A DNA stretch of 64,000 bases from Verrucomicrobiota bacterium (GTDB taxonomy: Bacteria; Verrucomicrobiota; Verrucomicrobiia; Opitutales; Cerasicoccaceae): NCBI GenBank assembly GCA_039818205.1, contig JBCBUK010000005.1:1-64000 (forward strand), in the 5' to 3' direction. A program made the translations under genes and the position numbers. Positions 1-2,488 of the stretch are shown here, one piece after another; position 1 is the stretch's first letter; each line of letters starts with the position of its first letter. The notes beneath the pieces were generated by a model. That model saw nothing but the letters and a program-made list of their open reading frames with translations. It did not search any database and was not told the DNA's origin.

Positions 1-411
1 AAGTGGCGTGACAAAGATCGGCTTACCACCCTGCAAAAGAATTTCGAAAACAAACTTGCGCAAGTTCTCGCTGTATTCGCCCTCCGGTTCCGTAAACAGC
101 CAATCAACCGATTCCTTTTGGTCATTGTGGCCGAACTCGATAAAGTAGTAATCACCTTGAAACGCTAGGGCCTGCTCCCAAAAACCAGCTTCAATAAAGC
201 TCTTTGTGCTCTGCCCACCTTTGCCGCGGTTTATAACTTCGACCTCGCCCGAAAAGAAATCGCCTAGGAATTCGCCCCAGCCATATTTTCCGGTCACTTC
301 ATGATGAACCGACGACGAAAGCAGCGAGTCGCCAACGAGCACGATACGAATCGGTTCGGCCTGAGCATGCGCCCAAGCGAGTAGTAGACAAATTGTAGCA
401 AATAGTTTCAC
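1..411 (-). CDS. Secreted SGNH/GDSL hydrolase, rhamnogalacturonan acetylesterase-like (CE12); runs off the left edge
   Basis: Not in the ORF track. Manual translation from GTG at 411 (AGGGGA RBS upstream) gives MKLFATICLLLAWAHAQAEPIRIVLVGDS..GWGEFL..INRGKGGQSTKSF..YFIEFGHNDQK..GGKPIFVTPL: signal peptide plus SGNH blocks I-III. Confidence 0.85.
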   Translation of the reverse strand, partial: MKLFATICLLLAWAHAQAEPIRIVLVGDSLLSSSVHHEVTGKYGWGEFLGDFFSGEVEVINRGKGGQSTKSFIEAGFWEQALAFQGDYYFIEFGHNDQKESVDWLFTEPEGEYSENLRKFVFEILLQGGKPIFVTPL

Positions 412-466
412 CGTTCCCCTGGATGGGCTACTAGAGTGACTTACATTTTTTTAGCAAGACCCTCCA

Positions 467-484
467 CCCCTCAAATTTGAGGGG
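467..484. promoter_or_regulatory. Perfect 18-bp palindrome CCCCTCAAATTTGAGGGG, likely a protein-binding site
   Basis: Read directly; no loop; lies in the divergent intergenic region 412-542. Confidence 0.5.
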
Positions 485-542
485 ATTGCCGAAGGCCTTA
501 TAGCCACTTGACAGCCACAGATTCGCCCTCAATGAACTACCC

Positions 543-824
543 ATGCGCCCAAAGCCCTTAATTGGCGACCAAGTCTCTGCCCGCTTCGTGGATGAAACAG
601 GCACGCGCTGGCTGCTTTCTACGGGACGCATCGGTTCGGTCGGCCAGAAGGTCACAGCTCTATTCAACGTCGAAGAGACAGATTTCGCCATGCAGCAGGA
701 TTTCTGGGTAAACTTCATAGAGGACGATCTAGCCCCAGTTAACCCTGGCGAATGGGAATATATCGGTCCTACCGAAACTGGGATGATGTGCATCCCTGAC
801 TTTGTTTGGAGGCCCCACTCCTAG
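543..824 (+). CDS. Hypothetical 93-aa protein
   Basis: ATG start with TTGACA upstream (508-513); fills the gap; its TAG overlaps the integrase TAG in a shared CTAG (821-824). Confidence 0.55.
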   Translation: MRPKPLIGDQVSARFVDETGTRWLLSTGRIGSVGQKVTALFNVEETDFAMQQDFWVNFIEDDLAPVNPGEWEYIGPTETGMMCIPDFVWRPHS

Positions 825-2170
825 CCCGTCCGGAAGTCCACGACCTTTGACGGCTTTTTCTGGCCAAACGACACTTTCGCGGCGGATTCCTGCGAATGCT
901 GATCTCGCAAATGCCCGTAAACCTTGCCTATCAGGATCCCGCCGTCACTGTGTCCGACCCACTCGGCGATTGTTTTAAAGTCAATTCCCGATTCAACGCA
1001 GGTGGTGATAAAATAGTGCCGAAAGTCATGATGGGTCATTCTGGCCAAGCCAAGACGCTCACACGCTCCGTCAATCGCCTTTTGAATGTTTTTCCGGCGC
1101 AATATAGGGCTTTCGAAGTCAGGCTGATGCTCATCAAAGAGTTGCTTCAAAAATGCGCGCCCCTCGGGAACCAGTGGAACGATCCGATTTGCCGCATTCG
1201 ATTTCGTGCCAGGAATATGCAATTGATTCTTCGTCCAGTTTACATGCTTCCATTGGAGCCGTTGCGCCTCGCCGATTCGCACGCCCGTAAACATTAGAAG
1301 CCGCGCACAATCGCCCGCGTCCCTGTTTCGACCCTCCCCGGCTGCCTTCAACTTCGGCCCCTTTTGGTTTTTTCTCAGATGGCGTTTGAATGTCGCCAGT
1401 GAAATACCAAGAGATTCGGCTTGCTCAGCCTGGGTTGAACCTTGAGCGCCTTCGAGCGAAAGAATTTTTTCCGGCTGCGGATGTTCCAGCTCAACGAGCA
1501 ATTTGTCCATTTCTTCGATTGACGGAAGATTGACCTTTTTCTCAGTGCGTTCCTTGGCTCGCTTCACCCTGAGCGCCGGGTCATCTGCCCGAACTCCGAT
1601 CGTAATGGCAAGTTCGGTCAGATGCTTCAGGGCACCGATTGTCTTGTTGATAGCCGACGACGATAGAAGTTTATCTTCCTGCTCGGTTCCGGGCGGCGCT
1701 TTTCCGATCGGTATCGTTTTGACCTTTCTTACCCAGCGTTCGCATTCGGCCTTGGAAAGTGTAGACATTTTTCGGTCGGCCATTTCTGGCCACGCTCGCA
1801 TAAGGCGCTTTGCGGCGGCAACTCGTGCCTCTTTGGATTTTGGCTTAAAATCCGGGTTCCCTTGGACATCGCGAATATACATGCCATAAATATCCCTCAG
1901 AGTGACATCATGCAGGTCATGGTTCACTCTGCCTTTTTCGGCGTCGTGCCTCATCTGCGCTTCAATCGCTCGCTGTTTCGCAATGCTCAGTTTATCGGTG
2001 CGCAAACTTTTCCATTTACTATAGCCTTTTCCCTCTTGACGCCAAAGCAAACGGACATAGTAACTTACCCCCTTCTTTCCATCTTTGTTGGTGGTAGTGT
2101 TCTTATAAAGTCCTTTGATACCTTTAATCTTCTGGTAGGTCGTGTTTTTCGCATCGTTTTTGTCGCTCAT
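821..2170 (-). CDS. Tyrosine recombinase / site-specific integrase
   Basis: Catalytic residues intact: TGVRIGE (R), GTKS (K), HDFRH (HxxR), VGH, KVYGH (Y). N-terminal arm-binding-like region (YYVRL..WKSLRT..AK). Start moved to ATG 2170 (MSDKN) because the longer ORF overlaps the tRNA. Confidence 0.93.
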   Translation of the reverse strand: MSDKNDAKNTTYQKIKGIKGLYKNTTTNKDGKKGVSYYVRLLWRQEGKGYSKWKSLRTDKLSIAKQRAIEAQMRHDAEKGRVNHDLHDVTLRDIYGMYIRDVQGNPDFKPKSKEARVAAAKRLMRAWPEMADRKMSTLSKAECERWVRKVKTIPIGKAPPGTEQEDKLLSSSAINKTIGALKHLTELAITIGVRADDPALRVKRAKERTEKKVNLPSIEEMDKLLVELEHPQPEKILSLEGAQGSTQAEQAESLGISLATFKRHLRKNQKGPKLKAAGEGRNRDAGDCARLLMFTGVRIGEAQRLQWKHVNWTKNQLHIPGTKSNAANRIVPLVPEGRAFLKQLFDEHQPDFESPILRRKNIQKAIDGACERLGLARMTHHDFRHYFITTCVESGIDFKTIAEWVGHSDGGILIGKVYGHLRDQHSQESAAKVSFGQKKPSKVVDFRTG

Positions 2171-2251
2171 ACAAAAGGTGTAGAAAAGCGATGTCCAACA
2201 AGCAAGATTTTCAATTTCAAAAACACGTAAGTCACTGAAAATCAACGATAA

Positions 2252-2324
2252 GGGTCGGTAGCTCAATCGGTAGAGCAGTTGCCTTTTAAGCAATTGGTTC
2301 TGGGTTCAAGTCCCAGTCGACCCA
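2252..2324 (+). tRNA. tRNA-Lys (anticodon TTT), CCA not encoded
   Basis: GGGTCGG/TCGACCC acceptor stem, AGCTCAATCGGTAGAGC D arm, GTTGC-CTTTTAA-GCAAT anticodon arm, CTGGGTTCAAGTCCCAG T arm. Confidence 0.97.
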
Positions 2325-2488
2325 CTTTTTTGATTGTGTCCACCCCGCCCGTCTCAATTCCCATGTCTGCTGATCGCCAATTTTGCTGGTCGACCAAATT
2401 GGTCGTTGCTGCGCGCAAATGTTCGGGATTCGCTGAAGTGCATTGATTTAGGCAACTTTTTGCCAGAATCGCAGTCACTACCTACACC

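What the first reader, a model, noticed from the sequence alone, without database searches (positions are those of the whole stretch)
1330..1480. Helix-turn-helix inserted inside the integrase just before the catalytic arginine
Seen: between LPSIEEMDKLLVEL and RDAGDCARLLMFTGVR there are ~50 extra residues containing TQAEQAESLGISLATFKRHLRK, a classic HTH pattern (xQxExAxxLGISxxTxxRxL), followed by a basic linker. Known: in lambda Int/XerC-type enzymes this link is only a few residues, and the integron IntI insertion lies elsewhere (between boxes I and II). Inference: an integrase with an additional DNA-binding module that could act as a built-in directionality factor, autorepressor or target selector, which would explain the lack of a recognisable xis or repressor gene.
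Basis: partly seen in the sequence, partly recalled or inferred. Interest (0 to 1): 0.7.

Follow-up and report, generated by a model that had tools for sequence, protein, structure and literature searches.

The report
Prophage integrase with inserted DNA-binding helix-turn-helix
A rare group of integrases from Verrucomicrobia, the enzymes that insert phages and islands into tRNA genes, carries a conserved extra helix-turn-helix module inside the catalytic domain; it probably grips DNA next to the recombination site, but it does not stand in for the usual excision protein.

Summary
Confirmed. The integrase at 821-2170(-) has a 46-residue insert (aa 230-275) between the first two catalytic-domain helices: 83 residues from Pro216 to Arg298, against a median of 37 in 117 other hits. 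AlphaFold models a helix-turn-helix there, and the insert is under purifying selection. Profile searches found 24 sequences with the insert, in three subclades about 30-45% alike. One origin is not rejected. Catalytic residues and an N-terminal arm-binding domain are intact. The integrase ends an element, probably a prophage, inserted at the tRNA-Lys anticodon loop; the rest lies on other contigs (link inferred). Attachment-arm geometry matches relatives without the insert. Best reading (0.4): an auxiliary module that binds DNA just outside the core site. No target motif was found. No prior description turned up in the paper searches or in this scan's notes.

The parts
821..2170 (-). Tyrosine integrase gene, 449 aa (arm-binding, core-binding and catalytic domains, plus HTH insert)
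   Evidence: PF00589 E 8e-19; phrog_1 E 1.5e-41
1937..2146 (-). N-terminal arm-binding domain (beta sheet plus helix, aa 9-78)
   Evidence: model strands 9-14, 21-27, 33-45, 48-55 and helix 61-78; model 18-433 aligns to full-length lambda Int 1z1b 13-356, Z 18.1, rmsd 7.5, 314 aligned
1586..1909 (-). Core-binding domain (about aa 88-195), with a 15-aa Pro-Pro-Gly loop (aa 152-167) that occurs with and without the HTH insert
1346..1483 (-). 46-aa insert between the first two helices of the catalytic domain (aa 230-275)
1364..1435 (-). Helix-turn-helix core (aa 246-269); G255, T260 and R263 in 11 of 11 non-redundant members, P231, A251, S257 and K262 in 10 of 11, Q247 in 9 of 11
875..1330 (-). 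Remainder of the catalytic domain with R298, K323, H381, R384, H407 and Y418 present
   Evidence: R298 invariant; H381, R384, H407, Y418 in at least 90% of 87 rows
1862..1881 (-). Arm-type repeat pair inside the integrase gene, inverted relative to the attachment arm; also present in the C44 paralogue; role unknown
   Evidence: I3; 6 matches genome-wide; synonymous-recoding nulls 236 and 54 of 5000; pattern chosen after seeing the sites
2177..2199 (+). Arm-type direct repeat pair (13-bp period) of the integrase-proximal attachment arm, just upstream of the start codon
   Evidence: matching pair on the far arm at C29:14112
2228..2240 (-). IHF-like site (2 mismatches to the recalled consensus WATCAANNNNTTR); the far arm on C29 has a perfect match
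   Evidence: conserved position in 8 aligned arms
2252..2325 (+). tRNA-Lys(TTT), head-to-head with the integrase; integration target
2252..2289 (+). Attachment core: 5' half of the tRNA up to the anticodon loop (2283-2289), duplicated at C29:13948-13985 (38 bp) and C11:70341-70300 (42 bp)
543..824 (+). 93-aa ORF convergent with the integrase; no Pfam or PHROG hit; probable cargo
1..411 (-). GDSL-like hydrolase gene cut by the contig edge; 125 of 137 residues identical to a gene beside the integrase of another prophage on C13; cargo

Best explanation
A lambda-type prophage/island integrase subfamily of Verrucomicrobiota that gained, probably once, an HTH module in the loop between the first two helices of the catalytic domain. 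Shown: the insert, its predicted fold, its conservation, the intact catalytic residues, and crossover at the tRNA anticodon loop with arm repeats and IHF-like sites on both arms. Inferred: each Int protomer bound to a core half-site reaches out with the tethered HTH to the next turn of DNA outside the half-site. This extends its footprint and raises affinity or fidelity for the attachment core, while directionality is still set by a separate Xis and IHF. The likeliest DNA under it is the conserved tRNA D-arm or T-arm sequence 14-24 bp from the loop, read partly through the backbone.
For: Purifying selection and higher conservation than the core-binding domain. Mean column conservation over aa 255-264 is 0.80, as high as Box II (0.79), while the linkers are at 0.43. 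The conserved Gln/Ser/Thr/Arg pattern is the DNA-backbone-contact pattern of HTH regulators (recalled knowledge), and the insert region has more Lys+Arg than Asp+Glu in 10 of 11 members, equal in one. Natural PDB hits to the profile are mostly DNA-binding HTH regulators, all weak (best E 0.013). The recognition helix stays constant although targets differ (Lys, Ala, Met, Thr tRNAs); these targets share a T-arm motif at +14 (8 of 8) and a D-arm motif at -17/-18 (7 of 7) from the loop. Arm spacing is unchanged: far-arm repeats at +127 here, +127 to +129 in 8 of 9 relatives without the insert. Separate Xis-like genes persist. Both argue against an architectural replacement. Engineered precedent: zinc fingers inserted into Cre- and Vika-type recombinases act through a site 5 bp outside the target (PMC11631766, passages and Supplementary Note 1).
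Against: No DNA binding was tested and no protein-DNA model could be made. That this loop lies at the outer edge of the half-site is recalled from Cre-loxP structures; a paper search for those contacts found nothing relevant. No insert-specific motif was found in the near arm or the far arm (the two insert-bearing far arms match at 11 of 30 positions, within the range of unrelated pairs), and the far arms do not mimic the T-arm. An integrase without the insert uses the same tRNA-Met in the same geometry in the same genome (L051), so the HTH is not needed for that target. D-arm and T-arm constancy holds for most tRNAs, including most targets of insert-less relatives. Most members were found with a profile containing the HTH, which inflates its apparent conservation.
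Confidence: 0.42

Rival explanations
1. The HTH binds accessory sites on the attachment arms or at the integrase promoter. It then tunes integration versus excision, or represses its own gene, alongside (not instead of) Xis.
For: The arm repeats lie 7-30 bp upstream of the start codon. The head-to-head tRNA-integrase layout is predicted to be autoregulated (PMC2951348, passages). Both copies in this genome carry an extra arm-type pair inside the gene. An HTH in some pNOB8-like integrases was proposed to regulate integration/excision (PMC8371274, passage). Weak 10-11-bp periodic repeats occur in one insert-bearing far arm (p 0.01).
Against: The same layout, arm spacing and periodic repeats occur in relatives without the insert (p<0.05 in 1 of 2 with and 1 of 9 without). 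The arm-binding domain already explains the arm repeats. Internal arm sites were not general in 21 loci scanned. Xis-like genes are present.
Confidence: 0.27
2. The insert is a protein-contact or allosteric module: it contacts a neighbouring protomer, Xis or a host factor, or modulates docking of the swapped C-terminal helix and so gates catalysis.
For: In Cre, helices F and G, which by position correspond to the helices flanking the insert (inference), help form the cavity for the neighbour's C-terminal helix (bioRxiv 10.1101/2020.05.24.113654, passage). The exposed Leu-Ala at the start of the recognition helix is conserved in 9 of 11 members.
Against: The best-conserved residues are the Gly, Thr, Lys and Arg typical of DNA-contacting HTHs, and the module is mostly basic.
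Confidence: 0.14
3. Moonlighting regulator: the integrase uses the HTH to regulate other element or host genes away from the attachment sites, as the reader suggested for the 467-484 palindrome.
For: Weak similarity to sigma-70 region 4, Xre-like and other regulator HTHs. Recombinase-fold proteins that act as repressors exist (MrpR; PMC10516654, search listing only).
Against: The palindrome also occurs beside an unrelated integrase and on C1. Catalytic residues are intact. A sister prophage in this genome that carries the same cargo gene has its own repressor.
Confidence: 0.1
4. A neutral, tolerated relic (for example a captured regulator or transposase fragment) with no current function.
For: It is rare (1 of 400 other genomes of the order; 4 of 401 in one family) and most of the family does without it.
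Against: pN/pS of about 0.16-0.25. The motif is kept across subclades only 30-45% identical.
Confidence: 0.05

Closest known systems
Arm-binding-domain tyrosine integrases (lambda Int, Tn1549/Tn916 Int; classification of Smyshlyaev et al. 2021, PMC8138268)
   Same: Three-domain layout, catalytic residues, arm repeats and IHF-like sites on both arms, 7-bp crossover region; best structural matches Tn1549 Int 6emz (Z 18.2) and lambda Int 1z1b (Z 18.1).
   Different: A 46-aa HTH before Box I. In the passages and part 3 that I read, the subgroup-specific insertions are elsewhere or of other kinds; 'helix-turn-helix' and 'Verrucomicrob' do not occur in the main text. Its Appendix figures were not seen.
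Integron integrase IntI insertion (I2)
   Same: A lineage-specific insertion within the catalytic domain, essential for function in IntI (PMC8138268).
   Different: Different place: against IntI4 (2a3v) the gap falls between query 343 and 351, between Boxes I and II. Far below the IntI cut-off (52 against 265 bits).
Archaeal integrases with HTH domains (some pNOB8-like; family fam30-04 with BAT and HTH_10)
   Same: An HTH on the same chain as a tyrosine recombinase; a regulatory role was proposed (PMC8371274 passages).
   Different: Archaeal, with another catalytic signature for pNOB8. The passages do not say the HTH is inside the catalytic domain; the primary paper (Erauso 2006) was not seen, so its position is unchecked.
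Protelomerase TelK 'stirrup'
   Same: An additional DNA-binding domain on a tyrosine-recombinase-type enzyme (PMC3558466, figure legend).
   Different: It is C-terminal, and the reaction is different.
Engineered insertional zinc-finger recombinases (Brec1-278, Vika-172; PMC11631766)
   Same: A DNA-binding module inserted on flexible linkers into the recombinase, acting on DNA just outside the target site.
   Different: Artificial. The Cre site 278 lies after Box I; whether Vika 172 matches this loop could not be checked. Dependence of activity on the insert is untested here.
KplE1 IntS / 'OD-shape' tRNA-integrase pairs (Panis 2010, PMC2951348); pTN3-like 5'-half targeting
   Same: The integrase promoter region overlaps an attachment arm; head-to-head pairs are rare (under 8% together with another class) and predicted autoregulated. 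[quoted passage not shown]
   Different: Here this layout is the rule for the whole family, with or without the HTH.

Membership tests
Tyrosine recombinase (phage integrase, PF00589) | Catalytic R-K-H-R-H/W-Y set and fold | tested here: met
   R298, K323, H381, R384, H407, Y418; Pfam 68.4 bits against cut-off 27.1; fold matches
Arm-binding-domain integrases | N-terminal three-strand-plus-helix arm-binding domain | tested here: met
   model secondary structure; alignment to lambda Int residues 13-356; Pfam DUF6538 only weak (E 0.15)
Arm-binding-domain integrases | Arm-type direct repeats flanking the core on both sides | tested here: met
   window 2177-2199 and C29:14112; the same layout in G724
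Named subgroups (IntTn916, IntSXT, IntP2, IntCTnDOT, IntBPP-1, IntDes) | Subgroup HMMs and phylogenetic placement | not testable with these tools
   the subgroup HMMs are not in the libraries offered; the tree held only family members
Integron integrase | I2 insertion between Boxes I and II; score above family cut-off | tested here: not met
XerC/XerD/XerS | Score above NCBIfam cut-offs; no arm-binding domain | tested here: not met
   54.6 against 329.6 bits for XerD and 49 against 335 for XerC; arm-binding domain present
Helix-turn-helix domain | Two helices with a tight Gly turn and profile match | tested here: met
   helices 247-253 and 258-269; G255 in 11 of 11; HTH families matched by up to 6 of 9 members at E<=0.1; one member above a cut-off
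Helix-turn-helix domain | Third (N-terminal) helix of the tri-helical bundle | tested here: inconclusive
   aa 230-246 is modelled as coil in the query; the region is variable among members
Helix-turn-helix domain | Sequence-specific DNA binding | not testable with these tools
   no binding data; no target motif found
Excisionase/RDF (HTH_17, MerR-like winged helix) | HTH_17 or MerR profile match with a wing | tested here: not met
   no HTH_17 or MerR family among the hits for the query segment or the 25 of 31 families shown for 9 members; no wing strands in the model
Prophage | Virion genes between the attachment sites | tested here: inconclusive
   tail genes follow the far attachment end on C29 (phrog_469, 31, 329, 396), but no contig overlap links C29 to the window

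The most novel reading that the evidence does not exclude
A natural version of the engineered zinc-finger-gated recombinases: the inserted HTH reads a conserved tRNA D-arm or T-arm sequence just outside the core site, and recombination is licensed only when it is bound. This would give a two-part target check that lets the lineage move between tRNA genes with different anticodon stems, and, because only tRNA-derived half-sites carry the motif, could bias the direction of the reaction.
Probability: 0.15. Interest if true: 0.78.

Novelty: new variant of a known kind. Interest (0 to 1): 0.55.

Why it matters
Tyrosine integrases normally add specificity through an N-terminal arm-binding domain and separate proteins (Xis, IHF). 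A conserved fourth module placed inside the catalytic domain points to another way to tune target recognition or activity. It also marks a loop that naturally tolerates a 40-47-residue folded insert in an enzyme with intact catalytic residues, which is useful for recombinase engineering, where insertion sites are now found by screening. The sites are mapped (core and both arms) and close relatives lack the insert, so the test is direct. The surrounding family also shows that restoring the 5' half of a tRNA, called rare in bacteria, is routine in these Verrucomicrobia elements.

Tried and rejected
Small element bounded by the inverted repeat 435-452 / 2219-2236: rejected as the element's ends, because the tRNA 5' half and matching arm repeats lie on C29. 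The 18-mer has only these 2 copies genome-wide at up to 2 mismatches and stays unexplained.

Region-only homologue search returned only the query and missed known relatives, so it is insensitive. Pattern scans with the three-sequence alignment found no member: genomes 0 of 55 candidates, viral 1 distant of 64, metagenomes 1 distant of 202. Viral scans with P0138, P0152, the clade II alignment and P0136 found no locus shown to carry the insert (L041 is a family member judged from its ORF start and 31% identity, L042 was not examined). There was no match to the insert region among 50,697 phage records, and only distant hits among plasmids.

Dropped hits: P0135 (tapeworm repeat protein) and P0141-P0143 (multi-HTH proteins without an integrase domain); G451 (free-standing HTH protein, transposase-like by eye); the G064 pair (two whole tRNA genes) from the 10 pairs. 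The donor of the HTH was not identified.

Homodimer prediction of the insert alone: no answer. The promoter scan was at chance level. The automated internal-arm scan picked the wrong register for the window and C44. The single-sequence fold was poor.

Literature: ten searches (and the error-free subset of these) showed no paper describing this insert or this Verrucomicrobia family; 'HTH domain inserted' and 'inserted helix-turn-helix' had 0 occurrences in the listed papers. One search was the tenth search. Nunes-Duby 1998, the classic alignment, is not held under the id I tried, and subscription journals were not searched. Earlier scan notes held nothing on this insert.

Full report
Observation. 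The ORF at 821-2170(-) encodes a 449-aa tyrosine integrase (PF00589 68.4 bits; phrog_1 E 1.5e-41). A homologue search gave 159 hits, of which 120 were listed. The segment from Pro216 to catalytic Arg298 is 83 aa in 3 of them and 19-55 aa in the other 117, with 37 aa in 61. The insert is thus 46 aa, about aa 230-275 (nt 1346-1483). The two other carriers are a 69% paralogue on contig C44 of the same genome and a partial 52% NCBI protein.

Is it an HTH, and is it kept? All 8 Pfam hits on the segment are HTH-type or HTH-containing families, but each is below its cut-off. AlphaFold2 with 87 rows (pLDDT 87.8) gives helices 247-253 and 258-269 at block pLDDT 83-92, coil at 230-246 and an uncertain linker at 271-280. 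Only 3 of the 87 rows carry the insert. Between the two genome copies, pN/pS is 0.157/0.628 for the insert and 0.111/0.716 for the HTH core, close to the catalytic domain (0.110/0.748); synonymous sites are near saturation. Three-way identity of the core is 71%, against 33% for the core-binding domain. These three sequences were found with the whole protein, so this test is not biased by the HTH.

A subfamily. A profile of the insert plus flanks against 1.84 billion representatives gave 12 hits. Eight are integrases with the insert, three are unrelated multi-HTH proteins and one is a false repeat hit. A second profile search gave 18 hits, all family members with the insert or part of it, 11 of them new. 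Genome searches added G211 and five Opitutaceae/Verrucomicrobiae MAG loci, of which L043 is P0156 and L046 probably holds P0137. That makes 24 sequences, several of them fragments or near-copies. Eleven less redundant ones were used for column counts: G255, T260 and R263 in 11 of 11; P231, A251, S257 and K262 in 10; Q247 in 9. Mean conservation over aa 255-264 (0.80) equals Box II (0.79); the linkers are at 0.43. This is inflated by how the members were found. One member passes the HTH_23 cut-off. In a tree of 70 rows built without the insert columns, the 16 carriers form two supported groups (13 and 3 rows) in an unresolved fork with 30 non-carriers. Forcing them together gave a log-likelihood 13.5 higher, p-AU 0.82, so one origin is allowed but not shown. 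The form is rare: 1 of 400 other genomes of the order, 0 real of 400 in the phylum, 0 of 400 in the class and 4 of 401 in one family. These samples overlap, and only the top candidates per genome were scored. The four hits have the contig numbers of the named Opitutaceae/Verrucomicrobiae records and are marked 'same order', so the host is an Opitutales bacterium (inference).

Anatomy of the protein. It has an N-terminal arm-binding domain, a core-binding domain with a Pro-Pro-Gly loop that occurs with and without the HTH, and a full catalytic set. The closest structures are Tn1549 Int and lambda Int (Z about 18). It is not XerC/D or an integron integrase.

The element. The integrase starts 81 bp upstream of tRNA-Lys(TTT) (2252-2325), head-to-head. 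This holds for 13 of 13 relatives' loci checked and 5 of 5 insert-bearing MAG loci, all at tRNA-Met(CAT). [quoted passage not shown] After the C29 copy come a perfect IHF-like site and an arm-repeat pair matching window 2177-2199, then phage tail genes. Before it lies a different integrase whose arm repeats match those after the C11 copy. The simplest reading is two elements in tandem at one tRNA, ours running from C29:13986 to window 2289. No contig overlap proves the link. A second insert-bearing system (G724) shows the same kind of junction, and G211 has the tRNA-Thr 3' half beside its arm. Of 10 pairs from relatives without the insert, 9 show the same 5'-half duplication. Papers describe head-to-head pairs as rare and predicted autoregulated (PMC2951348, passages), and 5'-half restoration as seldom in bacteria (PMC8371274 section 18).

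The missing xis and repressor are a contig-edge effect. L044, L045 and L046 encode HTH_17 proteins above the cut-off within 1.2 kb after the integrase (L045's insert is confirmed). L043 and L047 are cut short. A sister prophage on C13, which has a different integrase but the same GDSL cargo gene as window 1-411, has a CI-like repressor and an HTH_17 gene 5-7 kb beyond its integrase. Far-arm repeats sit at +127 here, at +140 in G724, and at +127 to +129 in 8 of 9 insert-less elements (+139 in the ninth). The near arms of 8 aligned loci (7 with the insert, 1 truncated) show no extra motif. The 467-484 palindrome has copies on C1 and C13. An insert-less integrase uses the same tRNA-Met in G724. 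So the HTH neither replaces Xis nor is required for tRNA targeting.

Mechanism. Shown: a conserved, basic, folded HTH on two variable linkers in an intact lambda-type integrase. Inferred: it binds DNA, from its residue pattern (recalled HTH knowledge) and weak matches to regulators. By recall of Cre-loxP structures, this loop sits near the DNA backbone at the outer end of the half-site; I could not confirm that in a paper, and no coordinates were available. If so, the HTH would reach the DNA just beyond the core. At attB this is the D-arm and T-arm, which are at constant distance in all known targets but also in most other tRNAs. Engineered insertions of zinc fingers into Cre- and Vika-type recombinases work in this way and can make activity dependent on the insert (PMC11631766: passages, Extended Data legend, Supplementary Note 1). 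I put this at 0.42, accessory-site or autoregulatory binding at 0.27, protein contact or allostery at 0.14 (the flanking helices line the C-terminal-helix cavity in Cre), a moonlighting regulator at 0.10 and a relic at 0.05.

Novelty. Ten paper searches showed no description of this insert. The library lacks most subscription journals, Nunes-Duby 1998 was not held, and the Appendix of PMC8138268 was not seen. Precedents are HTH domains in some archaeal integrases (position unchecked), the TelK stirrup and the IntI insertion. Earlier scan notes did not report it. Verdict: a real and apparently undescribed variant of a well-known enzyme family, with function inferred only. Interest 0.55.

Noticed in passing
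window 2252-2289; G000 C29:13948-13985 and C11:70341-70300; L002-L014, L043-L047, L055-L085: The whole Verrucomicrobia integrase family, with or without the HTH, sits head-to-head with many different tRNA genes and restores the tRNA's 5' half after crossover at the anticodon loop. The intact tRNA then has element DNA as its upstream region, a layout papers call rare in bacteria.
   Followed up: partly
window 1862-1881; L031:446-465: Arm-type repeat pair inside the integrase coding sequence of both copies in this genome, inverted relative to the attachment arm; a similar internal pair in L004 (18 of 20, 0 of 30 shuffles).
   Followed up: partly
G000 C11, C29, C5: Apparently two different prophages in tandem at one tRNA-Lys(TTT), with unrelated integrases; the genome holds several more prophage regions (C13, C28, C30-C33, C40).
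   Followed up: partly
L031 (G000 C44:1-3177) and L032 (G000 C9:18570-18842): The paralogous HTH integrase on C44 and a deleted remnant on C9 both precede a copy of the same tRNA-Ala(GGC): alternative alleles or a duplicated tRNA. No 5'-half copy was found for it.
   Followed up: partly
window 1-489; G000 C13:108193-112839; C29:6290-9319; C44:2568-3177: Several prophages carry similar cargo next to the integrase: a GDSL hydrolase, a response regulator and a roughly 1000-aa sensor-like protein (the last two judged from ORF starts only).
   Followed up: no
window 435-452 and 2219-2236: An 18-bp inverted repeat (16 of 18) with only these two copies in the genome; one arm overlaps the IHF-like site, the other lies upstream of the GDSL gene. 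Unexplained, possibly chance.
   Followed up: partly
window 1670-1717 (aa 152-167): A 15-aa Pro-Pro-Gly loop in the core-binding domain, patchily distributed in the family and not tied to the HTH.
   Followed up: partly
L039:1563-2960 (G211 C18): The insert-bearing integrase there is frameshifted near its start, has a diverged HTH, and lies beside only the 3' half of a tRNA-Thr(CGT).
   Followed up: partly
G000 C16:13079-14107: A cluster of 7 tRNA genes, including a second tRNA-Lys(TTT) of different sequence and a tRNA-Asn called with anticodon ATT.
   Followed up: no
P0122 and P0130 (cluster of P0019): Family integrases listed in 975-979-aa proteins, one named 'TPR repeat protein': possible fusions or mis-called genes.
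   Followed up: no
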